A stretch of DNA of 64,000 nucleotides, taken from an uncultured Alphaproteobacteria bacterium (lineage in GTDB: Bacteria; Pseudomonadota; Alphaproteobacteria; JALCBB01). A program made the translations under genes and the position numbers. Location: positions 540,335 through 604,334 of the forward strand of contig OY279575.1 of the NCBI GenBank assembly GCA_958267355.1, in the 5' to 3' direction. Each line of letters opens with the position of its first letter. The first letter of the stretch is position 1. Under the pieces are notes generated by a model. The model did not search any database. It was not told the DNA's origin and saw only the letters and a list, made by a program, of their open reading frames with translations. Shown piece by piece: positions 46,036 to 60,836 of this stretch.

Positions 46036-48342
46036 CTAATCTGCTCGCGCTCCCAGTAGGGGTTTTAGGTCTATCACAAAGAAAACTCCACGGTCTTTCT
46101 CTATGTTTTCGGGCGTGCCTGTGTACTTTTGAAAGAATCCAACATCTAGGCGTAGGCAGTCATCTTCGTAGATAAACACACTTTCCACACGCCGCGTTTG
46201 GTTTGCCGCAGTATCGCGAATGAGTCCAAGCTCGCTAGACAAATTATCATAGAGCGGAAGAGAAAAACGCAAATTAACTTCTTCACGATGGGCTAGGTCT
46301 TCAGGGGGGGGTCTTTCTAAGCCATAAAAATACCCAAGCGTTGCGTGTAATTCATCTTCCCTGCCAACGCGCAATTCAGAGTCGTGTAAGTTAATACGCG
46401 GCGACTCTTCGTCAATCCGCAAGACAGAGTCGAGAGCAATCCACTGATCCCACTCGGCGTTGAACGTTGTAACCCAATCCGTGCGCTTTTCTGCAAACCC
46501 TGCGTAGCGTCGCTTTTCTTGACGGTATTTATTCAAATAAGTACTTTGCCCCAAAAAAGTAGAAAAACCGCGTTGCTCAGAAAAGCGACTTGTCCAGCTG
46601 GCTCCGTAATCAATGCGCGAGCCTTCTTCACTCCTATCAGACCCTGGATAGCGATTGATACGAAAAAGTCGCGCTCTATCTAACGACAAGCTTTGACTCT
46701 CCTCGTTGGGAATATCTTCACGCTCAGGGGAACCCGCCACAGTAACCAACTGAACCCTTGGCTCAAGTAGATGCAAAGCCCGTGTTCCATCCACAGCAGT
46801 AGAGCCAGCGTTTTGCCCTCTAGCCACCACCAAGGGCATACGCCAGCCAAACGCCGCACTTGTATAGCTAACCAAAACCGCGTGTTGTTCTCCACTTGCC
46901 CCCGCCGCCGATTGCGACAAACCCCTTGACGCCAAAAACGCCGCCCGTGAGAAAGAATAGGCACTACTTTGCAGTACGACTTGCCCATCCCAGATATGCC
47001 CGCCCTTGGTGGTAATCGTACGACGCACCGACGGACGCAAACTTATACGGCGACTGTTCCCAAGATTTTTACGGTTTAAGATCCGCGCACTGGCATGAAG
47101 CTCAGGATAAAACCCCCGCTTAGGTGTACCAAACCAATACCAATCGGCTTGCGGCAAAACCACAGGCTGACGAATTTCTTGCGTCGCAATAGATAACGAC
47201 TCTTCGCGCAGGTTTTGATAGCCAATTGTCCGAAGCCGTAAGTACGTGTTGCGTCCGAAACGCTCTAGCCAGCCACGTTGCGAAAGCTGTGCCGCAGAAG
47301 AACGCACACGATATTCACGCAAATACCGCTTGTCACTCGCACTATCAATAGAAACACCAGCCCGCCAACGTTTGTTTAAGTCGCTCGTTGCATCAAAAAA
47401 TACATAGCCACGGTTACGACGGTTTAAAAAATCTCCTGTCGGAGTCTGCGGCTCAGAGCGCGTAAATTGTCCCTGCAAAAATATATGCTCGTGGCGGGTA
47501 CTATGCTCCAAATCTACGCCCAGTCCAGGCCCGCGCTTGGTCGCCAGAAAGGGATGTAACTCCAAATTGGTGTTCGGCTGTAAATTAACAAAATACCGCA
47601 GAAGCGTGAATTGTCCGAGATATTCATCAGCACGAATTTCAGGAGCCAAAAACCCTGTCCGCCGCTCTACAGTCGGATCCGGCAAGGAAATATATGGCGT
47701 AAAAAGAGCAGGAATACCAAAAAGCTTTAACCGCGCATTATGATAACGAACAACACCACGATCTTGATCCCAAGTCGCACGATCCGCATGGAGACTCCAA
47801 CTCAGCTCGTCTTCGCCTTCCAAACCCGTCGGCACGGAATCATCCGCCAGCGCACTAAGCCTGTCACCGCCTTTGGCCTGTGAATCAGCACAACGACACG
47901 CACTATAAGAAATATTGTCCAAGTGCATCTGTCGCGCACCTGTTGCATCTTCTTGCAAAATTGTCTCCCCCGCGAAGATCTGCGAGTCGTCCGACAGAAA
48001 GCCAAAAATCTGTGCCGCTGTGCCTGCCGAAAAATCATCCTGCACAACAAGCTGGTCGGCGTAGTATCTATCTCCTTCAGCCGTAGAAACCACTCCGCCT
48101 GGACTCATCGTTAAGATTCCGTTTTCTAAGTCGTAAAGAATTTCATCAGCCGTGATGGTGCGTCCATTCCAAGAAACCCGTGCCCCACCCGTAGCACGAG
48201 CAAATTTCTCGTTTTCTTCATAGACCAACTGCCCAGCTTCCAAACGCAAGGGAGAGCTTTGCAGATCCTGCGCCCTAGCAAGCCCCGAACCAGTCAAGAC
48301 CACAAAGACACAAAATACAGCCGTACACAGAAAACGAGCCAT
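46036..48342 (-). CDS. lptD: LPS-assembly protein LptD
   Basis: OstA/LptD-like large beta-barrel protein with signal peptide. Start ATG 48342 overlaps the lptG stop by 1 nt. Confidence 0.82.
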   Translation of the reverse strand: MARFLCTAVFCVFVVLTGSGLARAQDLQSSPLRLEAGQLVYEENEKFARATGGARVSWNGRTITADEILYDLENGILTMSPGGVVSTAEGDRYYADQLVVQDDFSAGTAAQIFGFLSDDSQIFAGETILQEDATGARQMHLDNISYSACRCADSQAKGGDRLSALADDSVPTGLEGEDELSWSLHADRATWDQDRGVVRYHNARLKLFGIPALFTPYISLPDPTVERRTGFLAPEIRADEYLGQFTLLRYFVNLQPNTNLELHPFLATKRGPGLGVDLEHSTRHEHIFLQGQFTRSEPQTPTGDFLNRRNRGYVFFDATSDLNKRWRAGVSIDSASDKRYLREYRVRSSAAQLSQRGWLERFGRNTYLRLRTIGYQNLREESLSIATQEIRQPVVLPQADWYWFGTPKRGFYPELHASARILNRKNLGNSRRISLRPSVRRTITTKGGHIWDGQVVLQSSAYSFSRAAFLASRGLSQSAAGASGEQHAVLVSYTSAAFGWRMPLVVARGQNAGSTAVDGTRALHLLEPRVQLVTVAGSPEREDIPNEESQSLSLDRARLFRINRYPGSDRSEEGSRIDYGASWTSRFSEQRGFSTFLGQSTYLNKYRQEKRRYAGFAEKRTDWVTTFNAEWDQWIALDSVLRIDEESPRINLHDSELRVGREDELHATLGYFYGLERPPPEDLAHREEVNLRFSLPLYDNLSSELGLIRDTAANQTRRVESVFIYEDDCLRLDVGFFQKYTGTPENIEKDRGVFFVIDLKPLLGARAD

Positions 48343-49487
48343 CAAAGACGCTCCGAGCGCGAGAGAGCAGCAACAGACAGCAAAGCACAAATCACTAATG
48401 GGCCCCAAATAGCAGCCAGCACAGGCACTTGCCGCGTGAGTCCGAGCGAGCGCATTAGATCAGAAAATCCGTGCAATAGAAGTAAGCTTCCTGCGACAAA
48501 CAAAAACCACTGCAGACGGCGATTCCGCCGCCACGGATAAAGCGAAAACACAGAAGCCAGCAAAGCAAAAACCAAAAGCCGAGCTGGCGTAGCTAGAATT
48601 TCGTGATAGCGATAGGTAAGCGGATGAGTCCCAGAACCCAAGTTATGACGCGCTTCAATCAAAGCAGGCAAACGCCACAGCGAAGTCGTTTCAGGAGCAT
48701 GATCACGACGACGCAAAGCCGCGGGTTCAACTGTGCTAGGCAAACGCAGCTCGGGCAGGGCAGAAGCCTGTGCGCCAAGCGGCACCGAGGAAACATTTTT
48801 CAGCAGCCACGAACCGTCGCGCAGGGAAGCTTCGCGGGCGGATAGGTGCTTTGCAATCTGCCCTTCGGACACCGTGATAACGGTGACTCCTTCTAGTGTG
48901 GTGCCGTCTGCGGAAGCTCGTTCGGCACGAATAAAAATTCGTTGCGCAGGAGTCTCTAAAGTGTCGCGTTGCATAAGCCAGAAACCTGCCTGCCACGCAC
49001 TGGTGTGAAGTGCAAACAAGTTAGACTGCAACCCTGCCGCAACTTGTTGCTTGCGCAAAGTAGAAGCCGCCGCCAGCGGATTTAACACAACGAAGGTTGC
49101 AATTCCCAAGAGTAGAGTTGCTACAAGCACAGGAGCCAGAATTTGCCGATCGGATAGTCCGTGCGAACGCAGGGAAGTCATTTCTCCGTGGTGGTGCAGG
49201 GAGATAAAAAAGTGAATCACTGCAAGAAAAACGATAAAGGGCAGAATGCTCTCCAAAAGAGCAGGCACAGCTAGGACAGCAAGCCACAAAACTTGCGTGA
49301 GTGCTGTGCCGCTGGCGGCTCCGTGGAGTTCATCAACGAAGGCCAGCAATAGCAGTAGGCCTGACAGGACTCCGATAAACAGCCCGCAGGACAGCAGAAA
49401 AAGCCGCGCCTGATAGAGCCACAGAGTGCCACCAAGCTTGCGCCGTGTAGGCACAACTTCAGACGGAGCTATAGAGGCAAGTGACAT
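48342..49487 (-). CDS. lptG: LptF/LptG-family LPS export permease
   Basis: YjgP/YjgQ permease architecture (TM helices at both ends, periplasmic beta-jellyroll). Start at ATG 49487. Confidence 0.78.
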   Translation of the reverse strand: MSLASIAPSEVVPTRRKLGGTLWLYQARLFLLSCGLFIGVLSGLLLLLAFVDELHGAASGTALTQVLWLAVLAVPALLESILPFIVFLAVIHFFISLHHHGEMTSLRSHGLSDRQILAPVLVATLLLGIATFVVLNPLAAASTLRKQQVAAGLQSNLFALHTSAWQAGFWLMQRDTLETPAQRIFIRAERASADGTTLEGVTVITVSEGQIAKHLSAREASLRDGSWLLKNVSSVPLGAQASALPELRLPSTVEPAALRRRDHAPETTSLWRLPALIEARHNLGSGTHPLTYRYHEILATPARLLVFALLASVFSLYPWRRNRRLQWFLFVAGSLLLLHGFSDLMRSLGLTRQVPVLAAIWGPLVICALLSVAALSRSERL

Positions 49488-49539
49488 AAAAATTCTCGCA
49501 GGCGTTTGCTTGAGCCTTCGGGGCGGGCGGGGAGTGGTG

Positions 49540-49680
49540 CATTTGCGTAGTTTAAAGTATGATTGGACTATAGCCCACTGGAGCGCATTGAAATCCACTG
49601 GGAAGCCCACTGGTAAGCCTACTGGGAAACCCACAGGGAAGCGCCCACTGGTAAGCTCACTGGGAGACACACAGAAACCG
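49540..49680. repeat. 12-bp tandem repeat (CCCACTGGTAAGC-like, ~6 copies) in the lptG/pepA divergent region
   Basis: Direct reading. Confidence 0.85.
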
Positions 49681-49714
49681 TAGCAATAAATCCAAGATTC
49701 GGAGGGAAACCCGT

Positions 49715-51325
49715 ATGCCAGCAGTAGCCTCAGCACGCAGTGCCTTGAAAATCACCTTTCACGGGCGCGAAGCCTTGCCTCCGCATGGAGCCGCCATCGC
49801 TGTGCCGCTTGGGGCGGGCGGGAGCTTTCCTGCCGTCACGCGGCGGATTGACGCAAAGCTGGGGGGCTTATTGAAAGACGCGGCTACGCGGGCAGAATGC
49901 ACGGGAGCGGCAGGTGAAGTTCTAGAAGTTTTTACGCCGCAGGAAAGCGGATTGTCGCGGGTCTTTTTGTATGGAACGACTCCGCAGCAGGATTTGCCTG
50001 AAGGTAAGGCGAGTCGTGCTGGACGGAATGAGAAGAAAACTTTTCCTGAACAGCCTGTGTCAAGAATTCCTGCCTTGAGTGCGACTCTGGCGGCTGAAAA
50101 GGCAGGAGCCATTTTGTATGCCAAAGCGGTTGCGGCAAAAGTGCAGGGCAAGGAGTTGTGGCTTGTTTCTGACTCAAGCACGCGGGCTTTGTCTGTGGCT
50201 GAAGGAGCGTTACTCCGTTCGTGGCGTTTTACCACCCACCACACACGCGGAGCCATGCACGGCGAAGCAAAGGTGCAGGCTTTGCGGGTTGTGACTACGG
50301 CGGGCAGGGGGCTTGAGCGTTCGTTTGTTGCTTACAAGGCGCGGGCACGCGGAAATGAAATTGCTAAGGCTTTGGTTTCGGAGTCTCCCAATTGGTTGTA
50401 TCCCGAATCTTTTGTGGCGGTGGCGAAGCGTGATTTGCCGCCTTTGGGGGTTAAGGTTTCGTCCTTGGGTGAAACGGAAATGCGCCGTCTAAATATGGGA
50501 GCATTGCTAGGCGTGGCGCAGGGGTCTGTGCGCAAGCCGCGTCTGCTGGTGATGGAGTACAAGGGTGCACCTGCGAGTGAAAAGCCTGTGCTCTTGGTGG
50601 GCAAGGGAGTCTGCTTTGACACGGGGGGAATTTCGCTCAAGCCCCCTAAGGGTATGGAAGATATGAAATACGATATGGGTGGAGCCGCCGCTGTCACAGG
50701 AGCCATAGCGGCAATCGCAGGACGCAAAGCACGGGCGAATGTTGTGGCGTTAGCGGGCTTGGTGGAAAATATGCCTGATGGTAATGCGCAACGTCCGAGC
50801 GATATTGTTTATTCGGCGTCGGGACAGACAATTGAAGTTCTGAACACCGATGCTGAAGGAAGACTCGTCCTTGCGGATGCGCTTTGGTATGCGCAGAAGT
50901 ATTACAAGCCGCGAGCGATTGTGGATCTAGCGACTTTGACAGGAGCTATGGTCGTGGCTTTGGGTAGTACGCGGGCTGGGTGCTTTGCCAATGATGACAG
51001 GCTTGCTAGGGCTTTGCTGGCGGCGGGCGAGCGGGTTGCTGAGCCTTTGTGGCGGTTTCCGTTGGAGCCCGATTACGACAAGCTGTTGGATTCTCCAGCG
51101 GCTGATATGCAGAATATCAGCCCGGGCTATGGAGCGGGTTCTATTACGGCGGCACAGTTCTTACAGCGATTTGTGGATCGGCGTGTGCCTTGGGCGCATT
51201 TAGACATTGCTGGCGTTGCTTGGCGGCACGGTGGCAGCTTAGAAGCCGCCAAGGGAGCAACGGGCTATGGTGTGCGGCTTTTGAATGAATATGTTTTGAG
51301 TACAGAACGCGGTAGCCGCCGCTAG
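49715..51325 (+). CDS. pepA: leucyl aminopeptidase (M17)
   Basis: NTDAEGRLVLADAL and other M17 active-site motifs. Confidence 0.9.
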   Translation: MPAVASARSALKITFHGREALPPHGAAIAVPLGAGGSFPAVTRRIDAKLGGLLKDAATRAECTGAAGEVLEVFTPQESGLSRVFLYGTTPQQDLPEGKASRAGRNEKKTFPEQPVSRIPALSATLAAEKAGAILYAKAVAAKVQGKELWLVSDSSTRALSVAEGALLRSWRFTTHHTRGAMHGEAKVQALRVVTTAGRGLERSFVAYKARARGNEIAKALVSESPNWLYPESFVAVAKRDLPPLGVKVSSLGETEMRRLNMGALLGVAQGSVRKPRLLVMEYKGAPASEKPVLLVGKGVCFDTGGISLKPPKGMEDMKYDMGGAAAVTGAIAAIAGRKARANVVALAGLVENMPDGNAQRPSDIVYSASGQTIEVLNTDAEGRLVLADALWYAQKYYKPRAIVDLATLTGAMVVALGSTRAGCFANDDRLARALLAAGERVAEPLWRFPLEPDYDKLLDSPAADMQNISPGYGAGSITAAQFLQRFVDRRVPWAHLDIAGVAWRHGGSLEAAKGATGYGVRLLNEYVLSTERGSRR

Positions 51326-51354
51326 GGTTTCGCTGGGGTTTTGCTAGAGTTTTT

Positions 51355-51834
51355 ATGGCTAAGGCAGATACAGCAGGAGCAGAGCTAGGAGTCTATCTTT
51401 GCTCGGCGGGGCGTGAATTTGCGTCTTTGCGCAGTTTGCTGACCCGAGCTTTAGAGTCGGGGGCACGGGCGGTGGTGCGAGTGCGTGAAGAAGAAAGCGA
51501 AGCTTTAGACAAGCGGCTCTGGCACGGCTCGGACTCGGGTATTCTTTTGCCCCACGGAGATGCAACAGCTCCACAGGCTGACCGTCAGCCGATTGTTCTA
51601 ATCACAGAAGGGCAAGCCGAGACCAAGCCTAGCAACGGGGCGCGTTTGTGGTTTCAATATCTTGCTCCGCGTGTGGCTTTGCCTGAAGTGAATCGTTTTG
51701 ACCGTATGTTTGTCATTGCTGTGGAAGGCTCGTTGGGTGCAGTCCAGTTTGACGAATGGCGGGCGAGCGGTTATGTAGTGCGTCTCTGGCGGCAGGATGA
51801 GTCTAACCACTGGCGTGAAGAAAAACCTGAATAG
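51355..51834 (+). CDS. holC: DNA polymerase III chi subunit
   Basis: HolC-like pattern (VYLCSAG...GARAVVRV...EALDKRLW...LLPHGDA) and the conserved position downstream of pepA. Confidence 0.7.
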   Translation: MAKADTAGAELGVYLCSAGREFASLRSLLTRALESGARAVVRVREEESEALDKRLWHGSDSGILLPHGDATAPQADRQPIVLITEGQAETKPSNGARLWFQYLAPRVALPEVNRFDRMFVIAVEGSLGAVQFDEWRASGYVVRLWRQDESNHWREEKPE

Positions 51835-51864
51835 AAGAAACACCTAAATAGAAGGAAAACAACA

Positions 51865-52287
51865 ATGGCGATTGAGCGCACTTTATCCATTTTGAAGCCC
51901 GATGCATGCCTGCGCAATCTAACGGGGCGGATTATGACTGTGATTGAAGACTCGGGCTTGCGGGTTGTGGCGGGCAAACGTCTGCAGCTCACCCAAGAGC
52001 GGGCAGAAGCTTTTTATGCGGTTCATAAAGACCGCCCATTTTTTGGTGATTTGGTTTCCTATATGATTTCGGGTCCTGTTGAAGTCCGTGTTTTAGAAGG
52101 CGAAGGCGCAGTTGCTAAGTACCGTGAGATTATGGGTGCAACCAATCCTGCGGAAGCGGCTGACGGGACAATCCGCAAGCTGTTTGCAGAAAATGTAGAG
52201 CGCAATTCAGTCCATGGCTCCGATAGCCAAGAAAACGCGGCGAAAGAAATCGCCTTCTTCTTCACCCCCGAAGAATTCACAGGCTGA
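51865..52287 (+). CDS. ndk: nucleoside-diphosphate kinase
   Basis: [11 protein letters not shown]...NSVHGSDS with the catalytic His. Confidence 0.95.
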
Positions 52288-52581
52288 AGTTATCCACACG
52301 AACAAATTGGCAATCATTAAAATTCACGAACAATTTACGGCAAAAAATTAAAACTTTTTCACAGATTAAAATTCTTCCACAGAATAGATTTTGCCTTTCC
52401 ACAAGAGAGTAGGGCAGGTCATACCAGCCCAGTGGTTAAGACTCTTACAGTGCTTGCCAAGCATTCTTGAAATGCTTTGTAAGCAGTTCGCATTCCACCC
52501 AATGTTTGCGGATCTGCATGGAGCTACCGCGTCCCTTGCCTCCACCAATAGGCATAGGCATGGACGTACGGGGGGAGGCAG

Positions 52582-53877
52582 ATGGGGCAGGGCAATGCTA
52601 TTGCACACCAAACGGTGTGCCTATGTTTCAGGCAATACGGACTTGCAGTTTTGCTGTTGAGTTTCGTTCCTGTGTTTTTAGCGGGGTGTCAAACCGCGTA
52701 TCTTGGTGAGTCGGTTTTTATTTCTCGTCCGAGTTCTGCGACTTTGCTGGCGATTGCTCTCAGAGAAAAATCTGCGTGGGACGATAATTCTGAAAATCGC
52801 CATAGCAAAAATACGCAAAAACATACTGTCACGAATGGAGTGACTCCTGTTCAGATAGATGAAACCAAACCGCTCACGAAAACCGAAGAAAAATATTTAC
52901 AAAAAATTCTTGACCAAGCTATAACCCCACCACCACCCAAGCCGAATGTTTCGCAGATTCCATCTGAGCCAGTACCAGAACTGCGTGAGCCAGAATTGCG
53001 TGAAAAAGAAGAAGAAACAGTAGGGCAAATCGCACCCCTGTTAGAAAAGCCGATTGACTCCATCGCAATAGATATAAAATCACGCACACAGCCTGACCCC
53101 GAACCTGCAGTCATAGAATTCCGTCCGCCTGAAGTTGAAACCAACACAAGCGAAGTTCAGCTTAATCCCGAGCCCGTATCGGAAAAACTAAAAATGGAAA
53201 CAATACCCAAGCCGCAAACGAACTTTAAACCCATAGATGTGCAGGTAGAAATCCACGAGCCGAAAGTCATAGAAGAAGAATTTACAGCCCAGCAAGTAAG
53301 CGTAAGCTTAAACAAGCCTAGCCCCCAACCCGAACCCGAAGAGCAAGACCCAACAGAAGTGGAGCTAAACAATAGCGTAGTGGTACGCAAAAATATGTTC
53401 GTGCTGGGAGAGCCAGACCCTGACCCTGAAAGAGTAGAAATAGAAATCTACGCACCAAAAATCGTAGAAGAAATATTTACATCACAAAGCATAAGTCTAC
53501 ACCTAGATGAACCTGACCCTGAACGCGATGCACCCGAGACAAGTATATATGAAATCCAGTTTGACAATACAGTCTTCGTAGAAAGCACAGACACAAGTGC
53601 ACCCGATGTGTTAAATGTGCCAAATCCTGACCCTGAAACAGTAGTGGTAGAATTCATACTTACACCCCCTGACCTTGACCTTATAGAAGTCAAAGCAGTG
53701 ATGACAATAGATACTGGCGCACCAAGTCCTAATGACGAAGACCATACAGACGGCGGAGCGGATAGCACCGTAGATGACAGTCCAGAAAGCCTTCACGAAG
53801 TTAGCAAAGACCAGACAGATAAATACGGCTTGGGAGATGCAGAAGACTTATTAAACTCCTTTTTGGGAGGCTTTTAA
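52582..53877 (+). CDS. acidic repeat lipoprotein (unknown function)
   Basis: Lipobox LAGC, very acidic and AT-rich, internal ~40-aa repeats (PDPDPE...IE/VEIYAPKIVEEIFT). Confidence 0.6.
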   Translation: MGQGNAIAHQTVCLCFRQYGLAVLLLSFVPVFLAGCQTAYLGESVFISRPSSATLLAIALREKSAWDDNSENRHSKNTQKHTVTNGVTPVQIDETKPLTKTEEKYLQKILDQAITPPPPKPNVSQIPSEPVPELREPELREKEEETVGQIAPLLEKPIDSIAIDIKSRTQPDPEPAVIEFRPPEVETNTSEVQLNPEPVSEKLKMETIPKPQTNFKPIDVQVEIHEPKVIEEEFTAQQVSVSLNKPSPQPEPEEQDPTEVELNNSVVVRKNMFVLGEPDPDPERVEIEIYAPKIVEEIFTSQSISLHLDEPDPERDAPETSIYEIQFDNTVFVESTDTSAPDVLNVPNPDPETVVVEFILTPPDLDLIEVKAVMTIDTGAPSPNDEDHTDGGADSTVDDSPESLHEVSKDQTDKYGLGDAEDLLNSFLGGF

Positions 53878-53889
53878 GCGCACCTGTGC

Positions 53890-54012
53890 TTAAGCAAAAA
53901 TAAACGCGAGAATAATAAGAACAATTGCCGCAGAAACGAAGCCAATACCCATTCCGCGAATGAAGTTGGTGTAGGTTTGCTTGCGCTCTTCTTCTGAAAC
54001 TTGTGCGGTCAT
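53890..54012 (-). CDS. small membrane protein resembling bacterial aa3-type cytochrome c oxidase subunit IV
   Basis: 40 aa (MTAQVSEEERKQTYTNFIRGMGIGFVSAAIVLIILAFIFA) with GGAGG 7 nt upstream of ATG 54012. The listed ORF 53890..54342 is over-extended through a tandem repeat. Confidence 0.5.
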   Translation of the reverse strand: MTAQVSEEERKQTYTNFIRGMGIGFVSAAIVLIILAFIFA

Positions 54013-54029
54013 GGTGATTCCTCCCGTGG

Positions 54030-54190
54030 TATCGCTTGTGGTTTTAGCCTTGGTCTTGGCTGTGATACTGCCCGTGGTGTTAGCCGTGTTATTGCTCGTG
54101 GCGTTAGCTGTGTTATTGCCCGTAGCGTTAGCTGTGCTACTGCCCGTAGCGTTAGCCGTGGTCTTGGCTGTAGCCCTGCGCAGGTTGGGG
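54030..54190. repeat. 21-bp tandem repeat (about 6 copies)
   Basis: gttagcYgtgYtaYtgcYcgtRgc units, read directly from the sequence. Confidence 0.85.
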
Positions 54191-54226
54191 TTAAGGATTC
54201 CAGTACTTGCGCCAATTGGCAAGACT

Positions 54227-56413
54227 TCAAGATGGCGACTCCTTTTGGTAAAGCCTACAAAGCTCTGCGGCTTCTTTTTGTCCGATTTTGTGGCGGATGG
54301 TAATTTCCGCAAGGCGACGGGCGAGCGGTAGCAAATCACCATGCTCGGGAATTGACACCAAGCGATATTCAGGATCTCCGTGCTGTCGGGTGCCGATTAA
54401 ATCGCCACTGCCACGCAGACGCAGGTCTTGCTCGGCAAGGACAAAGCCATTGTGCTCCTTGCGGATCAGTGCAAGCCGTTCTTTAGAGTGAATCCCAAGG
54501 GGGGCGCGATAGAGTAGCAAACACGAACTTGTTTGACCGCTCCGCCCAATCCGCCCGCGCAACTGGTGGAGCTGTGCCAAGCCAAACCGTTCAGCGTTTT
54601 CTACCACCATAATTTCAGCAGTCGGTACATCTACACCGACTTCTACGACAGTTGTTGCAACCAAAAGCGGGCGCGTACCTTCAGCAAAGGCAGAAATTGC
54701 ATCGCTTTTTTCTTGTGGCTTCATCTTGCCGTGAATGGAACCAACTTGTTGCGGAAAACACTCCGCTAAATATTTTGCTCTGTCTTCTACAGAAGTTAAG
54801 CCTTTGTGTTCTTCTTGCGAGTCTGTTTCCGCCGAGTCGTCTGCCAACAAGCGCGGACAAACCCAAAAGACTCTCGCCCCCTGCTTCAAACGCGGAGCCA
54901 AACGCGCAATCACTTCATCAAAGCGTGTCGCAGGTAGCACTTTCGTAGAAACAGGCGGACGACCATGCGGTAATTCGTCTAGAGTAGAAACCGATAGGTC
55001 TCCGTAGCTTGTCATTAACAAAGTACGCGGAATCGGCGTAGCACTCATCGCTAACAAATCTGCCTTATGCTTCTTACCTGCCTTCGCCGCCAAGGCAGTG
55101 CGTTGGCGGACTCCAAAGCGATGCTGTTCATCAATAACCGCAAAGCGCAAATCTTTAAACACCACCGAGTCGGCATAGAGCGCATGGGTGCCAATGGCAA
55201 GCTGGGCTGTACCATCAGCAAGACTCGTGTGAATCTGCTTCTGTGCCTTGGCAGTCATACCGCCAATCAATAAAACTATCTTCACGCCCAACTGAGTCGC
55301 CAGTGGTTGTAGACGCTCATAGTGCTGGCGGGCAAGAACTTCAGTCGGAGCCATTAAGGCAACTTGTCCGCCTGTTTCTACCACCGCCAAAGCTGCCAAA
55401 AACGCCACCGCTGTCTTGCCACTGCCAACTTCTCCATGGAGCAAACGCATCATACGGTCAGACGAAGCTAAGTCCTTAACAATTTCACCAAGCGCGCGAG
55501 TCTGCGCCCGAGTCAAAGTAAAGGGCAGAGCTTTTTGTCCTTGGCGTAAAAGCGGCGAAGAAGTTTTGGCGTTACTTTGCCCTCCTGTGCGGTTATGACG
55601 GCGGGCTTGCGACAAAACAAGCTGGTGGGCAAACAGCTCGTCCAAAGCCAAAACCCGCCGCTCAGGAGAGTCCGCCGTCAAAGAAGCAAGAGCGGCTTGT
55701 CCGTCGCTAGGCCTATGCAAGCCACGCAACGCCGTAAAGCGACTCGGAAGCCCGCCCAAGATCTCAGCCGCCCGTAGGTCTTCGTTACCACCTTCCGACT
55801 GCAAATGCGTAGCCCATTTGCCATAGGGAGCTTTCGCCGAAGCCTTCGCGTCTTCCTGCGGCAAGAACAACAAAGCTTGGGCAATTGACTCACGGACAAT
55901 GTGCTGCGATAGCTCCTTCACCAACGGATAGACTGGCTCAGGAACCCGCAAAGCAGCAACAGCCGTTTCAGGCTCAACCCGTTTCGGATGGGCAATCCGT
56001 GGCACAACAGCATTGCGCTCCACCTTGCCCGCAATCGCCAAACGCACACGCGGACGAAACGTTTTACGAAGCCAAGCCGCTTGTCCGCGAAAATACAAAA
56101 TCTGCAGGTGCTGGCCTGAATCATCCTGACAGTGAATCACCCACGGCTGACGCGGATGACGCGGCTGAACCACCGACAAGACCTGCACAACAAAGACTCC
56201 ATCTGTGCCGTGTGGCGTGTCAGCAAGCGAAGAAGCCTGACTACGGTCAACAAAGTTAAGCGGCAAGACAAACAGTAAATCCGCAAGCCGCGTGCCGTGT
56301 GCCAAATTGCTTAAGGCTTCACCGCGTTGTGGCCCCACGCCCTTGAGACTCGTCAAGGGAAGCCACAAAGCGTCGGGCAGGATTGTTTGCCGCGGAGTTT
56401 TTTCTTTCGCCAT
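54227..56413 (-). CDS. recG: ATP-dependent DNA helicase RecG
   Basis: Helicase motifs (GEVGSGKT, DEQHRFGV, QLHQLRGRIGRSG) and a wedge-domain N-terminus. Confidence 0.92.
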   Translation of the reverse strand: MAKEKTPRQTILPDALWLPLTSLKGVGPQRGEALSNLAHGTRLADLLFVLPLNFVDRSQASSLADTPHGTDGVFVVQVLSVVQPRHPRQPWVIHCQDDSGQHLQILYFRGQAAWLRKTFRPRVRLAIAGKVERNAVVPRIAHPKRVEPETAVAALRVPEPVYPLVKELSQHIVRESIAQALLFLPQEDAKASAKAPYGKWATHLQSEGGNEDLRAAEILGGLPSRFTALRGLHRPSDGQAALASLTADSPERRVLALDELFAHQLVLSQARRHNRTGGQSNAKTSSPLLRQGQKALPFTLTRAQTRALGEIVKDLASSDRMMRLLHGEVGSGKTAVAFLAALAVVETGGQVALMAPTEVLARQHYERLQPLATQLGVKIVLLIGGMTAKAQKQIHTSLADGTAQLAIGTHALYADSVVFKDLRFAVIDEQHRFGVRQRTALAAKAGKKHKADLLAMSATPIPRTLLMTSYGDLSVSTLDELPHGRPPVSTKVLPATRFDEVIARLAPRLKQGARVFWVCPRLLADDSAETDSQEEHKGLTSVEDRAKYLAECFPQQVGSIHGKMKPQEKSDAISAFAEGTRPLLVATTVVEVGVDVPTAEIMVVENAERFGLAQLHQLRGRIGRSGQTSSCLLLYRAPLGIHSKERLALIRKEHNGFVLAEQDLRLRGSGDLIGTRQHGDPEYRLVSIPEHGDLLPLARRLAEITIRHKIGQKEAAELCRLYQKESPS

Positions 56414-56424
56414 AAACAGACTTT

Positions 56425-56520
56425 ACCAACAGAACAAAACAGACTGTAAAGATAAAACAGATTGTGCAGATTGTAAGGATAAAGCAGACTGTAAAGACAA
56501 AGCAGATTGTAAAACAAGTC
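56425..56520. repeat. 12-bp tandem repeat (CAGAYTGTAAAG-like, ~6 copies) in the recG/sdhE-mfd divergent region
   Basis: Direct reading. Confidence 0.85.
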
Positions 56521-56673
56521 TATACAGACTTGCATTTTTACCAGCGGCGGCGGACTATAAGCTGTCCTGCAGGTTTTCCGCGCTTGCCAGAAACAAGCGA
56601 GCGCAAAAAAGCCACGCGGGCCTACAGCTATTTAATCACCACTTTACACCCCTCAAGCAACGGGCTGTTCTTC

Positions 56674-56961
56674 GTGAATTTGCATCTCTCCCCCACCGCA
56701 CTTGAATCCCTGCGCAAACGGCTGAGACACCAATCAGCACAACGCGGAATGCGCGAGCTAGACCTACTGCTAGGCGCATGGGCAGAAAAACACCTGGCGG
56801 ACTTGTCTGAGCCAGAACTGCTCGCCTACGAGCAGATTTTAACCCTCGGTGAGCCGGTGCTGTGGCACTTCCTACGCGAAGCAAGCGCACCTGTGCCAGA
56901 AGACCTAGACGCAAGCACACAAGCCCTGCTGGTGCGTATCCGTGCGGATTCCATCCCGTGA
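56674..56961 (+). CDS. sdhE: SdhE/DUF339-like FAD assembly factor
   Basis: RGMRELDLLLGAWAEKHLADLSEPELLAYEQIL matches the SdhE core. GTG start inferred, and the gene sits in the conserved recG-sdhE-mfd context. Confidence 0.6.
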   Translation: MNLHLSPTALESLRKRLRHQSAQRGMRELDLLLGAWAEKHLADLSEPELLAYEQILTLGEPVLWHFLREASAPVPEDLDASTQALLVRIRADSIP

Positions 56962-59900
56962 GCAGGCAGGCTGACTTCGCAGGCTCCGAGCCATGGCGCC
57001 TACTGTCACTCACAGAGCACCTAAAGGCACAGCAAACCCGCGCTGTGCTTGTCACGCCCGATAGAGCAGCCCTAGAACGCGCCTGCCTATCGGTACAGTT
57101 TTTTGCTCCTGAGCTTGAAGTTTTACGCTTTCCTGCTTGGGATTGTCGCCCTTACGATTCCCTGTCTCCATCGGCAGAGACAATGGCTCTGCGCCTGTCG
57201 TGCCTGCACCGCCTTAGCGAGTTGCAAAACGGGCAAGACGCGCAAGACACAGGGACTCCGCTTTTGGTGATTACTTCTGTGGCGGCGGTGTTGCAGCGTG
57301 TTGCTCCGCGGACTTGGTTTGCTGGACGCTCGCAAATCCTAAAACAAGGCACAACAAGCGGCTTGGATTCCGTGCGTGAATTTTTACATCGCAATGGCTA
57401 TCGCCGCGTAGAAAATGTTGCACTGGCGGGCGAATATGCTGTGCGGGGTGGCTTGTTAGATGTACTTACGCCTGCGGCTTTTACTCCTGCGGCTTTTGAA
57501 GCTTCAAGCGAAGAAGCCAAGTCCGAAGGCGGACATGCCTTGCGGCTAGATTTTTTCGGCGAAGAGCTAGAGCGCATTCGGGTTTTTGATCCTGTAAGCC
57601 AACGCAGTTTGGCGGAAGTGAATTCGGCGGTATTGCTTCCAGCTTCGGAAGTTTTGGCAGACGCGAAAGCCATAAAGCGGTTTCGCCTTGGCTGGCGCAA
57701 ACACTTCGGAGCCCAAGCCACACGCGATGGTCTTTATCGTCAGATGAGTGCTTTGGCGGACTCAAGCGCAGAGTCCCAAAATCACAATGGACAAACCCAC
57801 GATTCTTTGGGCGAAGCTTCCATCGTTGCGACAGGAGCCGATGGTGTGGGTTTATTTCACCACCTACCGCTTTTGCACGAGTCCATGGAGACCTTGGCTG
57901 ACTTTCTACCGCGAACAAACTTTTACTTAGAGCCGCAAGTTCCTGACTATGCGCGCTTGCGAGAAGATGAAGTGCAACGCGGCTACACGACACGCACGGA
58001 GTTAGAAGCTAGAGAAAATAAGGCGCGGCGAAAGTCTGCTTTGCAGTACGAAGTTTTGGAAGCCGAAACGCAACGGGCTTTGCCAACCGAAGCTCTGTAT
58101 CTAAAACAGCAGGAGCTAGAAGCCACGATCAAGAAGACAGGCGGACAAGTTATCCTTGGCACAGATGAAGTCAAGGGCGATGGTGTAGTTCTTGCGCGTG
58201 ATTTTGCGAGTGCTCGTGGCACGGGCAAGCTACTTGAAGAGTTGAAGCAAGAAATACAGGCGCAAAGGCGGGCGAAACGCCGTGTATTGTTTGCGTGTTT
58301 TTCGGAGAATAGTCTTGAGCATTTGCGTGGTTTGTTGAGCGAAAACGAGCTGACGGAAGTGCAAAAAGTTACAAGCCTTGCTGAACTGGAGTCTTTGCCA
58401 ATTGAAATTGCGGGCTTGGCACTCTTACCGTTGGGACATGGATTTTATCGTGAAGGTTTGTGTATTTTTGGTGAATATGACTTGCTGGGCAAGCGGGTGC
58501 AGACTCGTGGAAAGACTCGCCATGCTGAAGATTTTGTTGAAGCTTTAGCGGGCTTGCATGAGTTAGAGCCGCAGGATTTGGTAGTGCATCACGCGCATGG
58601 TATTGGACAATTTTTGGGTTTAGAGACGCTGGTTGCGGATAAGAAGCCGCACGATTGTTTGCGGGTAGCCTATCGTGGCGGGGATAGCATCTTGGTGCCT
58701 GTTGAGCATATGGATTTGCTTTCACGCTATGGCGGCAAGACGCAAGATGTTGAGCTTGATCTTCTGGGGCGGAGTGGCTGGCAGTTGCGGCAAGCCCGTG
58801 TGCGCGGAAGGCTTCGTGATATGGCGGAGCGTTTGATTGCCTTAGCGGTGGAGCGGGCTGAGTTGCGGGTTGAGCCGACGCTAGCGGACTTGGCTTTGTA
58901 TGAGCGGTTTAAGTCGGGTTTTGGCTGGGTGGAGACTCCAGACCAGCAGGAAGCGATTGCGGCGGTGGAGGAGTCGCTTTCGCTTGCCCATCCGATGGAA
59001 CGTATGATTTGCGGAGATGCGGGTTTTGGCAAGACTGAAATTGCGTTACGGGCTTCTTGTTTGGTGGCGGCGAGTGGCAGGCAGGTTGCGATTGTGGCTC
59101 CGACGACTTTGCTGGCGCACCAGCATTACCGCAACTTCAAGGAGCGGTTTGCCGATTTGCCGTTTCGGGTGGCGCAGTTTTCGCGGTTGGTGCCTGAAGC
59201 CCAGCAGAAGGAGTCGCGTGCGCTTTTGGCGGCGGGGAAGGTGGATATAGCCGTTGGCACGCACGCGCTTTTGGCGGAGCGTATTTCTTTTGCTGACCTT
59301 GGGCTTTTGGTGATTGATGAAGAGCAGCGTTTTGGCGTGAAGCAGAAGGAGCGGCTTAAGGGTTTGCGCTTGCCGCCCAATGAGGGAAAGAGCGAGAGAA
59401 AAGGCGAGGGAAAGAGTGAAAGACAAGGTGAAAAAAAGGGTGAGAAAAAGAGCGCAAGCGAGTCAGAAAACAGCAAGGAGAAAAATAGTTTAGTTAATGC
59501 GCCGCATGTTTTGACTTTGTCGGCGACTCCGATTCCGCGTACTTTGCAGCAGGCGTTGCATGGGATTACGGATATGAGTTTAATTTCCACGCCGCCGCCG
59601 ATGCGCACGGCTGTGCGTACTTTTATTGGCACTTGGGATTCGGCGGCTGTGCGTGAAGCCCTGTTGCGGGAGAAGCGGCGTGGTGGGCAATCGTTTGTTG
59701 TTGTGCCGCAGGTGCGTGATTTGGAGTCGTTGCGTGATGATTTGGAGCGGCTTGTTCCTGAGCTTAGTGTTTGTCAGCTTCATGGTGGTGTATCTGCGGC
59801 TGAGTTGGAAGAAACAATGGTGGCGTTTTTGCGTGGTGATTATGATGTACTGCTATCCACGGACATTATTGAGTCGGGCTTAGATATTCCGCGGGCGAAT

Positions 59901-60836
59901 ACTTTGCTGGTTTGGCGGCCTGATCGTTTTGGCTTGGCGCAGTTGTATCAGTTGCGGGGCAGGGTGGGGCGTGGCAATGAAACGGGCTGGGCGTATTTTT
60001 ATACGCGTCCGCATGAGTCTTTGACGCAGGCGGCGCGTCAGCGGTTTGCCGCCTTACAGCGTATGGACGGACTTGGCGTTGGTTTTTCTTTAGCGGCGGC
60101 GGATTTAGAAATTCGCGGTGGCGGAAATTTGTTAGGCGAAGAGCAGAGCGGACAAATCCGTGAAGTGGGTTTGGAATTGTATCAGCGTATGTTAACCGAT
60201 GCGATGAAGGCGGCGCGAGAAAATCGTGACAGGAAAAATCTTAACAAGACAAATCGCGGTGGAAAAAATCGTGGCGAGACAAATCGTGACAGGCAAAATC
60301 GTAATGAGACGAGTCGTGATACGAAGCACCAAGGCGGCAACAAGCTGCCCCCAGACCTGTCAAGCCAAGACGAGTCGCAGAAGACGATTACGGAGTTGAA
60401 GTTAGATTTAGCGTTACGGATTCCTGAAGACTACATAGAAGGTTTGGGTTTGCGGTTAGATTTGTATCGCCGTCTTTCGCGGTTGGAGTCTCCAGAAGCT
60501 TTTCGGGCTTTTCGCGAGGAGATGGAAGACAGGTTTGGCGTTATGCCTGAAGCGATGGATAATTTGTGTCGTGCGATGGCATTGAAGCGGCGGGCTGAAG
60601 CCTTGCGGATCATCCGCGTGGAGGCGCAGGCGCGTATGATTCGCCTGCATTTCGGAGAAGCGGGCTTTAGCAATCCCTTGGGTTTGGTGCGGTGGCTGGA
60701 AGGGGCGCGTGGAGCTGTGTCTTTGGGGGCGGATTCGGTCTTGGTCTGGCGCACGAGTTCTAGCAATGGTGCGGAATTGCTGGAGAAAATCGGTAAGTTT
60801 TTAGCCAAATTGGAGAAGATAGCGGCGGTAGAATGA
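56958..60836 (+). CDS. mfd: transcription-repair coupling factor Mfd with two low-complexity insertions
   Basis: RecG-like helicase core (GDAGFGKTEIA, DEEQRFGV, QLYQLRGRVGRG) and TRCF domain. GTG start overlapping the sdhE stop (GTGA) is inferred. Lys/Glu repeat at 59383-59460 and an RNR(D/N/E)-repeat at 60226-60330. Confidence 0.88.
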   Translation: MSRQADFAGSEPWRLLSLTEHLKAQQTRAVLVTPDRAALERACLSVQFFAPELEVLRFPAWDCRPYDSLSPSAETMALRLSCLHRLSELQNGQDAQDTGTPLLVITSVAAVLQRVAPRTWFAGRSQILKQGTTSGLDSVREFLHRNGYRRVENVALAGEYAVRGGLLDVLTPAAFTPAAFEASSEEAKSEGGHALRLDFFGEELERIRVFDPVSQRSLAEVNSAVLLPASEVLADAKAIKRFRLGWRKHFGAQATRDGLYRQMSALADSSAESQNHNGQTHDSLGEASIVATGADGVGLFHHLPLLHESMETLADFLPRTNFYLEPQVPDYARLREDEVQRGYTTRTELEARENKARRKSALQYEVLEAETQRALPTEALYLKQQELEATIKKTGGQVILGTDEVKGDGVVLARDFASARGTGKLLEELKQEIQAQRRAKRRVLFACFSENSLEHLRGLLSENELTEVQKVTSLAELESLPIEIAGLALLPLGHGFYREGLCIFGEYDLLGKRVQTRGKTRHAEDFVEALAGLHELEPQDLVVHHAHGIGQFLGLETLVADKKPHDCLRVAYRGGDSILVPVEHMDLLSRYGGKTQDVELDLLGRSGWQLRQARVRGRLRDMAERLIALAVERAELRVEPTLADLALYERFKSGFGWVETPDQQEAIAAVEESLSLAHPMERMICGDAGFGKTEIALRASCLVAASGRQVAIVAPTTLLAHQHYRNFKERFADLPFRVAQFSRLVPEAQQKESRALLAAGKVDIAVGTHALLAERISFADLGLLVIDEEQRFGVKQKERLKGLRLPPNEGKSERKGEGKSERQGEKKGEKKSASESENSKEKNSLVNAPHVLTLSATPIPRTLQQALHGITDMSLISTPPPMRTAVRTFIGTWDSAAVREALLREKRRGGQSFVVVPQVRDLESLRDDLERLVPELSVCQLHGGVSAAELEETMVAFLRGDYDVLLSTDIIESGLDIPRANTLLVWRPDRFGLAQLYQLRGRVGRGNETGWAYFYTRPHESLTQAARQRFAALQRMDGLGVGFSLAAADLEIRGGGNLLGEEQSGQIREVGLELYQRMLTDAMKAARENRDRKNLNKTNRGGKNRGETNRDRQNRNETSRDTKHQGGNKLPPDLSSQDESQKTITELKLDLALRIPEDYIEGLGLRLDLYRRLSRLESPEAFRAFREEMEDRFGVMPEAMDNLCRAMALKRRAEALRIIRVEAQARMIRLHFGEAGFSNPLGLVRWLEGARGAVSLGADSVLVWRTSSSNGAELLEKIGKFLAKLEKIAAVE

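What the first reader, a model, noticed from the sequence alone, without database searches (positions are those of the whole stretch)
52300..53877. Low-GC locus encoding an acidic PDPE-repeat lipoprotein
The AT-rich ~1.6-kb region holds a lipobox protein (pI very acidic) with ~40-aa repeats (EPDPDPERVEIEIYAPKIVEEIFT / PDPERDAPETSIYEIQF) and a PPPPKP stretch. It resembles no enzyme family I recognise. It could be a surface-exposed calcium-binding protein, an intrinsically disordered spacer protein, or a phage or host-interaction factor. It sits between ndk and a repeat-preceded small oxidase-subunit-like gene.
Basis: partly seen in the sequence, partly recalled or inferred. Interest (0 to 1): 0.5.

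Follow-up and report, generated by a model that had tools for sequence, protein, structure and literature searches.

The report
Orphan acidic disordered repeat lipoprotein
This is a real gene for a lipid-anchored, very acidic, proline-rich and apparently unfolded envelope protein, found only in one small group of uncultured alphaproteobacteria and evolving far faster than its neighbours; it is a moderately interesting orphan, not a new kind of system.

Summary
Window 52582-53877 (+) encodes a 431-aa protein with a canonical lipobox (L-A-G-C, Cys36). The mature part has pI 4.2, net charge -50 and 11.6% Pro. It contains a PPPPKP stretch and PDPE-punctuated repeats, whose true period is about 65 aa, not about 40.

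No Pfam, NCBIfam, PHROG or PDB family matches. In about 15 billion proteins, sequence searches find two clusters: strain variants (97-98% identity) and a 399-aa ortholog (41%). A third lineage carries a 205-aa gene at the same position. It shares only the signal peptide, the lipobox and about 25 following residues, and it lacks the repeats. All three sit between ndk and cox4-recG.

Neighbouring genes are 76-93% identical where this gene is 38-41%. dN/dS is 0.28 against 0.08 for the neighbours. AlphaFold gives no fold. Composition (pI, %Pro, %Asp+Glu) is conserved while sequence is not.

The low GC (0.45 against 0.53) is real but not unique in the window. It comes from amino-acid content plus A-ending codons, and the orthologs share it, so it is not recent transfer.

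Best reading: a clade-specific, probably outer-membrane-anchored, disordered polyanionic tether or spacer that grows by repeat expansion. Its exact role is unknown.

The parts
52288..52581 (+). ndk-to-target spacer (294 nt), the presumed promoter and 5' leader. It contains an AT-rich segment 52288-52400 (GC 0.30), a perfect DnaA-box 9-mer at 52290-52298, direct repeats of TTYTTCCACAG-like motifs at 52347-52403, and the Shine-Dalgarno GGGGGGAGG at 52570-52578.
   Evidence: The TTCCACA repeats and the Shine-Dalgarno core are conserved in L082 and L084. The DnaA box is conserved in L082 only.
52582..53877 (+). Coding sequence of the 431-aa acidic, proline-rich lipoprotein precursor (stop codon included).
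   Evidence: The frame is intact in 8 strain variants and in a 41%-identical ortholog. dN/dS is 0.28.
52582..52689 (+). Type II (lipoprotein) signal peptide, residues 1-35, plus the lipidated Cys36. The lipobox is L33-A34-G35-C36. The +2 residue is Gln, not Asp.
   Evidence: The lipobox is invariant in all 11 family members and in the L084 positional ortholog.
52690..52770 (+). Conserved membrane-proximal segment (residues 37-63, QTAYLGESVFISRPSSATLLAIALREK). It is the only part of the mature protein shared by all three lineages. A short helix is predicted at 52-63.
   Evidence: hhalign probability 93.6%, E 2e-7, and BLASTP E 1e-5 against the L084 ortholog. Helix from the low-confidence model.
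52771..53088 (+). Variable linker (residues 64-169), rich in Lys, Thr and Asn and then increasingly acidic. It contains PPPPKP (52927-52944) and a 15-nt tandem repeat encoding PELRE-PELRE (52966-53004) that is deleted in one strain allele.
53089..53718 (+). Repeat region (residues 170-379). The units are w0 53089-53229 (short), w1 53230-53412, w2 53413-53625 (both full, about 61-71 aa) and w3 53626-53718 (short). Each unit starts with P-x-P-[DE]-P-E followed by alternating hydrophobic and acidic residues. Full units carry the best-conserved motif, VE[IV][ED]I[YH][AE]PK[IV][IV]EE.F.
   Evidence: The motif is conserved in P0002.
53719..53874 (+). Acidic Asp/Thr/Gly-rich C-terminal tail (residues 380-431). 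It carries the semi-conserved [YF]-G-L-G-D motif (53824-53838) and a predicted terminal helix at 420-430.
   Evidence: The L084 ortholog has DFLGVG near its C-terminus.
53890..54012 (-). Convergent neighbour: a 40-aa gene resembling aa3-type cytochrome oxidase subunit IV. The 150-aa ORF in the ORF list is an upstream extension through a repeat.
   Evidence: Pfam COX4_pro_2, E 2.3e-4, 21.8 bits against a cut-off of 22. The orthologs are 39-40 aa in L082 and L084. The Shine-Dalgarno GGGAGG lies 7 nt before ATG 54012.
54013..54174 (.). 24-nt tandem repeat (about 4-5 copies) in the recG-cox4 spacer. It is not part of the lipoprotein gene, and the alignment to strain contig L081 breaks inside it.

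Best explanation
The locus encodes a clade-restricted envelope lipoprotein.

Shown here:
- It is a real, constrained coding gene with a conserved ribosome-binding site, signal peptide and LAGC lipobox.
- After the lipidated cysteine comes a conserved segment of about 25 residues.
- The rest is a long polyanionic chain (net charge -50) with 11-13% proline and no predictable fold.
- That chain's sequence and length change quickly (205 to 433 aa), partly through in-frame repeat slippage and duplication of a ~65-aa unit.
- Its pI, proline content and acidic content stay constant across lineages.

Inferred:
- The precursor is processed by Lgt, LspA and Lnt. Because residue +2 is Gln or Lys rather than Asp, Lol probably sorts it to the outer membrane.
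- There the membrane-proximal conserved segment docks it, and the acidic, proline-rich chain behaves as an extended, hydrated tether or spacer. In physical behaviour this would resemble the TonB proline-rich rod or the LpoB linker.
- The chain may carry a short hydrophobic C-terminal motif ([YF]GLG) to a partner.
- Bulk properties (length, charge, stiffness), not a fold, would be what selection maintains.

Whether the chain faces the periplasm or the cell surface is not known.
For: Gene reality and constraint:
- The frame is intact in all 11 alleles, and the indels seen in the protein alignment are whole codons.
- Against L081 there are 9 synonymous and 9 non-synonymous changes, giving dN/dS 0.28.
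- The Shine-Dalgarno core and the start region are conserved in three lineages.

Lipoprotein signal: L-A-G-C is invariant, with a hydrophobic region and a basic N-terminal region.

Conserved membrane-proximal segment: hhalign probability 93.6%, E 2e-7, against the 205-aa positional ortholog.

Disorder:
- AlphaFold2 on the 11-sequence alignment gives mean pLDDT 28.7 and pTM 0.14. Outside the signal-peptide region it predicts only three short helices.
- A single repeat unit modelled with an 8-unit alignment gives pLDDT 60, pTM 0.14 and no secondary structure.
- All three orthologs and the repeat region lie on the disordered side of the charge-hydropathy boundary.

Composition is conserved and sequence is not. 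pI is 4.07-4.23, Pro 11-13%, Asp+Glu 21-22.5% and Lys+Arg 7-8% in orthologs that share 28-41% identity or less.

Fast evolution: 38-41% identity, against 76-93% for 11 syntenic neighbours. dN/dS is 3.7 times that of the pooled neighbours (Fisher p = 0.006).

Repeat-driven length change: a PELRE deletion and a PD insertion occur among strains (with for the 15-nt repeat). The two full units are near-identical in P0002 (score 94) but diverged in the window protein. The L084 ortholog has no repeats.

No known domain was found.
Against: - No experiment or expression data are available.
- Lipidation, outer-membrane sorting and topology are inferred from sequence rules established mainly in E. coli.
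- A low AlphaFold confidence with only 2-3 independent lineages does not prove disorder. The alternating hydrophobic and acidic stretches (VEIEIY, VVVEFIL, SISLHL) and the well-conserved 20-25-residue core motif could be beta-strands of a small domain, or could fold on binding.
- The C-terminal motif is short, is altered in one allele (P0037) and is only loosely present in L084.
- Nothing identifies a partner.
- 'Spacer or tether' is a physical description and not a demonstrated function.
Confidence: 0.55

Rival explanations
1. It is a surface-exposed host-, phage- or environment-facing factor. The variable acidic repeats would lie outside the cell and change quickly under diversifying selection, as in variable surface lipoproteins or the acidic tandem-repeat effectors of intracellular bacteria.
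For: - It evolves much faster than every neighbour.
- In-frame repeat indels occur among co-occurring strains.
- The non-synonymous fraction is higher than in the neighbours.
- The genomes are small, 1.84-2.09 Mb. All were recovered from one HiFi metagenome sample, and giant IAT_beta/Calx-beta adhesin-like genes lie nearby in the sister lineages.
Against: - dN/dS is 0.28, so there is no gene-wide positive selection, although power is low (18 changes).
- No surface-export signal or system is identifiable.
- The default location of a Lol-sorted lipoprotein is the periplasmic face of the outer membrane.
- Conserved composition with free sequence is equally expected for any disordered region.
- The host or habitat of the sample is unknown to me.
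Confidence: 0.2
2. It is a folded repeat protein. Each ~65-aa unit would be a small beta-rich domain, or the units would together form a beta-solenoid, that AlphaFold cannot model because the family is too shallow. It would then act as a binding or adhesin-like module rather than as a disordered chain.
For: - Alternating hydrophobic and acidic patterns are typical of amphipathic beta-strands.
- The core motif VE[IV][ED]IYAPK[IV]VEE.F.SQS is strongly conserved between lineages that are otherwise 41% identical.
- pLDDT is 73-79 over the first 30 residues of the unit model.
Against: - The unit model has no secondary structure and pTM 0.14, and the full-length model has pLDDT 28.7.
- The region has 13.8% Pro, net charge -34 over 210 residues, and lies on the disordered side of the charge-hydropathy plot.
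- The L084 ortholog does without the units altogether.
- There is no Pfam or PDB match even at E<=10.
Confidence: 0.15
3. It is a high-capacity, low-affinity divalent-cation binder or buffer anchored in the envelope, with a calsequestrin-like polyanion. This could coexist with the tether model.
For: 82 acidic residues and a net charge of -50 in 396 residues. The acidity is conserved in all orthologs.
Against: There is no RTX motif, and no EF-hand-like pattern in the window protein or conserved across the orthologs. There is no Calx-beta or other calcium-binding domain. Acidity alone is not evidence of a cation-binding function.
Confidence: 0.07
4. It is a horizontally acquired or phage-derived low-GC islet, or a decaying non-functional ORF.
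For: GC 0.451 and GC3 0.387 against 0.53 and 0.51. Codon usage is atypical, with A3 0.38 against 0.19. No homologs exist outside the clade.
Against: - The gene sits at the same position between ndk and cox4-recG in three lineages whose neighbours have diverged to 75-93%.
- The same GC deficit and A3 excess occur in the orthologs.
- About 60% of the GC deficit follows from amino-acid composition: expected GC 0.481 with the neighbours' codon usage.
- There is no tRNA near the locus (the window's only two lie at 9.9 and 14.5 kb), no integrase, and no PHROG or IMG/VR match for the window protein.
- The frame is intact and dN/dS is below 1.
Confidence: 0.03

Closest known systems
TonB proline-rich spacer (E. 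coli TonB residues ~66-102; (Glu-Pro)n-(Lys-Pro)n) and LpoB/LpoA-type outer-membrane lipoproteins with long disordered linkers
   Same: A membrane-anchored envelope protein whose long proline-rich charged segment is extended and not folded, and could span the periplasm. Short local resemblance exists, for example P0002 'SKPVVIEVKPQKPKSE'. Like LpoB it is anchored by an N-terminal lipid. The comparison rests on my own knowledge of these families.
   Different: There is no TonB_C domain and no N-terminal transmembrane helix, and no globular effector domain at the end of the linker as in LpoA/LpoB (Pfam found nothing). The chain is purely acidic, not a Glu-Pro/Lys-Pro dipole, and it is built of ~65-aa units. 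It is an analogue in physical behaviour, not a homolog.
BamF (Pfam DUF3035), the alphaproteobacterial BAM-complex lipoprotein (PMC3359395)
   Same: It is an alphaproteobacterial outer-membrane-type lipoprotein with a non-Asp +2 residue. It has a short conserved sequence in the region just after the lipidated cysteine, which the paper proposes as a docking motif for a membrane complex.
   Different: There is no match to DUF3035 even at E<=10. BamF is about 17.5 kDa, is reported in all alphaproteobacteria and lies next to lspA. This gene lies between ndk and cox4, is 2-2.5 times longer, and occurs in a single clade.
Low-complexity repeat lipoproteins: Neisseria Lip/H.8 antigen (AAEAP pentapeptide repeats) and Mycoplasma variable lipoproteins (Vlp/Vsa)
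   Same: Lipid-anchored proteins whose mature part is mostly proline-containing low-complexity repeats, with repeat-number variation between strains. From my own knowledge.
   Different: There is no sequence similarity. The units here are about 65 aa and degenerate, not short perfect tandem repeats. No phase-variation machinery is evident, and surface exposure is not shown.
Acidic tandem-repeat proteins of Ehrlichia (TRP32/47/120) and PEVK-type entropic springs (titin)
   Same: Strongly acidic, disordered, repeat-built and fast evolving, with a Pro/Glu/Val/Lys-rich composition (38.7% of the mature protein). The surrounding genome is rich in short tandem repeats. From my own knowledge.
   Different: Ehrlichia TRPs lack signal peptides and are secreted by a type I system into host cells, whereas this protein has a lipoprotein signal. 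Titin PEVK is eukaryotic and cytoplasmic. There is no homology.

Membership tests
Bacterial lipoproteins (Lgt/LspA substrates) | N-terminal signal peptide with a basic n-region, a hydrophobic h-region and a lipobox [LVI][ASTVI][GAS]C | tested here: met
   Arg17, the h-region GLAVLLLSFVPVF and L-A-G-C36. The lipobox is invariant in 11 alleles and in the L084 ortholog.
Bacterial lipoproteins (Lgt/LspA substrates) | Actual diacylglyceryl modification and signal peptidase II cleavage; outer-membrane sorting | not testable with these tools
   The +2 residue is Gln or Lys (not Asp), which under the E. coli rule suggests Lol-dependent outer-membrane sorting. This is inference only.
BamF / DUF3035 | Match to Pfam DUF3035 | tested here: not met
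   No Pfam hit at E<=10 for the three segments of the mature window protein or for full-length P0002, at E<=0.1 for the full window protein, or at E<=0.01 for the L084 ortholog.
BamF / DUF3035 | Gene adjacent to lspA; present across alphaproteobacteria (PMC3359395) | tested here: not met
   The flanks are ndk and cox4/recG. The family is confined to three lineages. Relatives with 49-51% RecG identity lack the locus.
TonB family | C-terminal TonB_C domain and an N-terminal transmembrane anchor | tested here: not met
   No Pfam hit. The N-terminus is a cleavable lipoprotein signal.
TonB family | Proline-rich charged spacer | tested here: met
   11.6-13.8% Pro, with P-x-P-[DE]-P-E motifs and PPPPKP. 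This is a resemblance in composition only.
Calcium-binding repeat proteins (RTX, EF-hand, Calx-beta) | GGxGxD nonapeptides, an EF-hand loop or a Calx-beta domain | tested here: not met
   The regular-expression scan found no RTX motif, and no EF-hand-like pattern in the window protein or conserved across the orthologs. No Pfam domain.
Genomic island / prophage cargo | Mobile-element hallmarks (integrase, tRNA target, flanking repeats), patchy presence, phage homologs | tested here: not met
   Housekeeping flanks. The only tRNAs of the window are at 9.9 and 14.5 kb. Synteny is conserved in three lineages. There are no PHROG hits at E<=0.1 for the window protein or P0002, and no IMG/VR relatives.
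Intrinsically disordered proteins | No stable fold; composition conserved and sequence not | tested here: inconclusive
   pLDDT is 28.7 for the full length. The unit model has pLDDT 60, pTM 0.14 and no secondary structure. The protein lies on the disordered side of the charge-hydropathy plot, and pI, Pro and Asp+Glu are conserved. However, the alignments are shallow, and biophysical measurement is needed.

The most novel reading that the evidence does not exclude
This may be a young envelope gene caught in the act of growing. A small ancestral lipoprotein, like the 205-aa form in lineage L084, would have expanded by duplication of an A-rich ~65-aa unit. That would produce a PEVK- or TonB-rod-like polyanionic 'spring' of about 400 aa anchored in the outer membrane. 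It would set envelope spacing or form a charged surface brush at the interface with a host, in a previously undescribed and probably host-associated alphaproteobacterial lineage. This would be a bacterial example of function residing purely in the length and charge of a lipid-anchored disordered chain.
Probability: 0.12. Interest if true: 0.55.

Novelty: new variant of a known kind. Interest (0 to 1): 0.3.

Why it matters
If the reading is right, this is a clean natural series. The forms of 205, 399 and 428-433 aa share the same anchor, charge density and proline content. Such a series could be used to ask what selection preserves in disordered envelope proteins, and how repeat expansion builds them.

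It also flags one of the most rapidly evolving envelope components of an uncultured small-genome alphaproteobacterial clade. That makes it a reasonable candidate for an interface molecule.

It does not reveal a new enzymatic or genetic system. Its practical value is mainly for annotation: a lipoprotein with a disordered acidic repeat region, not foreign DNA.

Tried and rejected
**Family and structure searches**
- Pfam, NCBIfam, PHROGs and PDB-sequence searches of the whole protein, of its three segments and of the orthologs found nothing significant. The best were a CS domain at E 1.1 and a fatty-acid CoA ligase at E 1.8; both are noise.
- Fold search was not run, because both models were of too low confidence to give meaningful matches.

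**Homolog searches**
- The word-indexed search (5.8 billion cluster representatives), the exhaustive phmmer search (1.84 billion representatives) and a profile search all found only two clusters.
- JGI metagenome and IMG/VR scans found none.

**Taxonomy**
- A RecG scan of GTDB species representatives gave at best 37% identity, to Holosporaceae MAGs. That scan depends on exact peptide words.
- The RecG protein search gave unnamed Alphaproteobacteria MAGs at 49-51%, and Kiloniella, Reyranellaceae and Rhodospirillaceae at 42-45%.
- I could not name the organism or the host of sample ERZ19433661.

**Replication-origin idea for the AT-rich spacer**
- The spacer holds the only perfect DnaA box of the window plus three box-like direct repeats.
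- I rejected it as the working reading. There is no skew inflection at 52.3 kb, no strand switch of genes, and the perfect box is not conserved in L084.
- One perfect 9-mer in 128 kb of two-strand sequence is close to chance expectation (about 0.5).

**Promoter and terminator scan:** no more hits than in shuffles for promoters, and no convincing terminator between the convergent genes.

**Antisense ORFs** inside the gene (for example 53448-53768, minus strand): disregarded. The plus frame carries the conserved signal peptide, the whole-codon indels and the excess of synonymous changes.
Full report
**What is there**

The window has 53% GC overall. At 52582-53877 on the plus strand lies a 431-codon ORF. 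It follows pepA (49715-51325), holC (51355-51834) and ndk (51865-52287) on the same strand. It converges on a small COX4_pro_2-like gene and recG on the minus strand.

The start codon is preceded by GGGGGGAGG at 52570-52578. Its GGGGAGGCA core is conserved, at a similar distance from the start, in the two related lineages found later.

The N-terminus has a basic residue (Arg17), a 13-residue hydrophobic stretch and L-A-G-C36. That is a textbook lipobox.

The mature protein (396 aa) has pI 4.23, with 82 acidic against 32 basic residues (net charge -50), 11.6% Pro and 12.9% Glu.

**Repeats**

At the DNA level only short, degenerate direct repeats are seen around CC(T/C)GACCCTGAA, which encodes PDPE. 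There is also a 15-nt tandem repeat encoding PELRE-PELRE.

At the protein level the best self-match is 221-240 against 286-305. It scores 64, against a maximum of 41 in 20 shuffles, which gives a period of 65 aa. Aligning units from this protein and its ortholog shows two unit types:
- Full units of 61-71 aa (w1 217-277, w2 278-348).
- Short units (w0 170-216, w3 349-379) that lack the central YAPK[IV]VEE.F.SQS insert.

The repeat observation is therefore confirmed, but the unit is about 65 aa and not about 40.

**Composition**

The ORF has GC 0.451 and GC3 0.387. The mean over 38 ORFs of the window is 0.53 and 0.51, so z is about -2.2. It is not unique in the window. glyS (19012-21186) has GC 0.423 and a PolyA_pol-family gene (2212-3621) has 0.455.

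The deficit has two sources. With the neighbours' codon usage the protein would have GC 0.481, so roughly 60% of the deficit comes from amino-acid content. The rest comes from a marked preference for A-ending codons: A3 is 0.38 against 0.19, AAA:AAG is 18:4 against 50:92 in the neighbours, and GTA and ACA are enriched.

The orthologs in both sister lineages show the same offset from their own neighbours: GC 0.465 against 0.543, and 0.503 against 0.582, with A3 raised in both. The peculiarity is therefore old and intrinsic to the gene. It is not a mark of recent import.

**Relatives and synteny**

Three searches found only two clusters: the word-indexed search, the exhaustive phmmer search of 1.84 billion representatives, and a profile search.
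- Eight alleles of 428-433 aa at 97-98% identity.
- Three alleles of 399 aa at 40-42% identity.

The window itself comes from a circular 1,859,045-bp hifiasm contig of ENA analysis ERZ19433661. The other alleles lie on contigs of up to 1.84-2.09 Mb.

The 399-aa ortholog sits in exactly the same place, in the order pepA-holC-ndk-X-cox4-recG-sdh5-mfd.

A RecG search revealed a third lineage (75% RecG identity) in the same sample. There the slot between ndk and cox4 holds a 205-aa gene. Its product has FLAGCQSAYLG and about 25 further residues in common with the window protein (BLASTP E 1e-5; hhalign probability 93.6%, E 2e-7). It continues as an acidic, proline-rich tail with no 65-aa units and ends in DFLGVGPKPKFFENNE.

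The next relatives (RecG 49-51%) have DUF502 next to recG and lack the locus. JGI metagenomes and IMG/VR hold no relative. The family is thus confined to one clade of uncultured alphaproteobacteria. The nearest named RecG relatives of that clade are Kiloniella, Reyranellaceae and Rhodospirillaceae at 42-45%.

**Evolutionary rate**

Between the window and L082, eleven syntenic neighbours are 76-93% identical in protein, while this gene is 38-41%.

Between the window and a 98.4%-identical strain contig (L081), the gene has 9 synonymous and 9 non-synonymous changes, giving dN/dS 0.28. Nine neighbours pooled have 103 and 24, giving dN/dS 0.077 (Fisher p = 0.006).

The gene is therefore under purifying selection, but a much weaker one. 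The strain alleles also differ by whole-codon indels in repeats: a PELRE deletion and a PD insertion. In the 399-aa ortholog the two full units are nearly identical to each other (score 94), whereas in the window protein they have diverged. This suggests gene conversion or recent duplication in one lineage.

Bulk properties are nearly constant across the three lineages: pI 4.07-4.23, Pro 11-13%, Asp+Glu 21-22.5% and Lys+Arg 7-8%.

**Structure**

AlphaFold2 with the 11-sequence alignment gave mean pLDDT 28.7 and pTM 0.14. Besides helices in the signal-peptide region, it predicted only short helices at 52-63, 100-113 and 420-430.

A single 71-aa unit, modelled with an alignment of eight units, gave pLDDT 60, pTM 0.14 and no secondary structure.

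The mature proteins and the repeat region all fall on the disordered side of the Uversky charge-hydropathy boundary.

These results fit an extended, disordered chain. Because the alignments are shallow, they cannot exclude a fold that forms only on binding, or a small beta domain.

**Known families**

Nothing in Pfam, NCBIfam, PHROGs or PDB sequences matches.

BamF (DUF3035) is the alphaproteobacterial BAM lipoprotein, with a conserved motif in its disordered N-terminal region (PMC3359395). It is the nearest conceptual precedent for a conserved membrane-proximal segment. However, the Pfam model does not match, and the gene context and distribution differ.

There is no RTX motif. The window protein has no EF-hand-like pattern, and none is conserved across the orthologs.

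**Interpretation**

Shown: this is a real, clade-restricted lipoprotein gene whose mature product is a polyanionic, proline-rich, repeat-expandable chain without a predictable fold. It evolves fast in sequence and length while keeping its composition.

Inferred: it is lipidated and sorted to the outer membrane (+2 Gln or Lys). The conserved post-cysteine segment serves as a docking element. The chain acts as an extended tether or spacer, perhaps presenting a short C-terminal hydrophobic motif. I put this at about 0.55.

The rivals are:
- A surface-exposed interaction factor under diversifying selection (about 0.2).
- A folded beta-repeat protein missed by AlphaFold (about 0.15).
- A cation buffer (about 0.07, not exclusive of the tether model).
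- A foreign or decaying ORF (about 0.03).

**Verdict**

Among its interpretations, the disordered-spacer idea is the best supported, and the phage or foreign-DNA idea is not supported.

The locus is a new orphan family of a known general kind, low-complexity repeat lipoproteins. Interest is moderate to low.

Noticed in passing
window 54013-54174: A 24-nt tandem repeat (about 4-5 copies) fills the recG-cox4 spacer and inflates the ORF-finder's cox4 ORF to 150 aa. The real gene is probably 53890-54012 (40 aa, with Shine-Dalgarno GGGAGG), as in the sister lineages (39-40 aa). The alignment to strain contig L081 breaks inside the repeat, which suggests copy-number variation.
   Followed up: partly
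whole window, e.g. 4281-4355, 16878-16994, 28172-28244, 31883-32312, 38015-38126, 43610-43696, 49595-49665, 56440-56517, 59382-59428, 60215-60319: The genome is unusually rich in short tandem repeats with periods of 12-36 nt: 27 TRF rows in 64 kb. Some are intergenic. Others lie inside housekeeping ORFs with periods that are multiples of three (polyprenyl synthetase, class II ribonucleotide reductase, mfd) and produce low-complexity inserts such as GKSERKGEGKSERQGEKK in Mfd. The repeat-built lipoprotein may be one product of this genome-wide tendency.
   Followed up: no
window 52290-52403: The only perfect DnaA-box 9-mer (TTATCCACA) of the window lies 3 nt after the ndk stop. It is followed, in the same orientation, by TTTTTCACA, TCTTCCACA and CTTTCCACA at spacings of about 18-22 nt, within an AT-rich stretch (GC 0.30). 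The box and 28 flanking nt are identical in L082 but not conserved in L084. The TTCCACA repeats are conserved in all three lineages. There is no GC-skew inflection, so it is probably a regulatory site rather than oriC.
   Followed up: partly
window 19012-21186: glyS (glycyl-tRNA synthetase beta subunit) has GC 0.423 and GC3 0.341. That is lower than the lipoprotein gene and much lower than the adjacent upstream ORF at 18093-19019 (0.533), which I did not identify. The composition is atypical for a housekeeping gene and unexplained.
   Followed up: no
window 11462-14284 (-): A 940-aa ORF with no Pfam domain at E<=0.01; another unannotated large protein.
   Followed up: no
L081 (16.5-kb hifiasm-meta contig, 98.4% identical to window 43379-59967): This contig has 72 gap openings relative to the window. 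They fragment pepA, recG, lptD and lptG into pieces, while the lipoprotein gene, ndk and holC stay intact. This is either assembly error in a low-coverage contig or a strain with pseudogenised housekeeping genes.
   Followed up: partly
L082 18750-21200 and L084 1-3578: Giant adhesin-like genes (IAT_beta plus Calx-beta, products of 2,190 to more than 2,300 aa) lie just beyond mfd in both sister lineages. The corresponding window region (about 61-64 kb) shows only an ORF running off the window end or fragmented frames.
   Followed up: no
window 38933-40543, 36348-38018, 27131-31216: The window encodes an MttB-family methyltransferase, formate-tetrahydrofolate ligase, a class II (B12-dependent) ribonucleotide reductase and pyruvate phosphate dikinase. 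The genome is 1.86 Mb, and its RecG is at most 51% identical to that of any MAG outside its own clade. This points to a deep, undescribed alphaproteobacterial lineage, with several co-occurring strains and species in one sample.
   Followed up: partly
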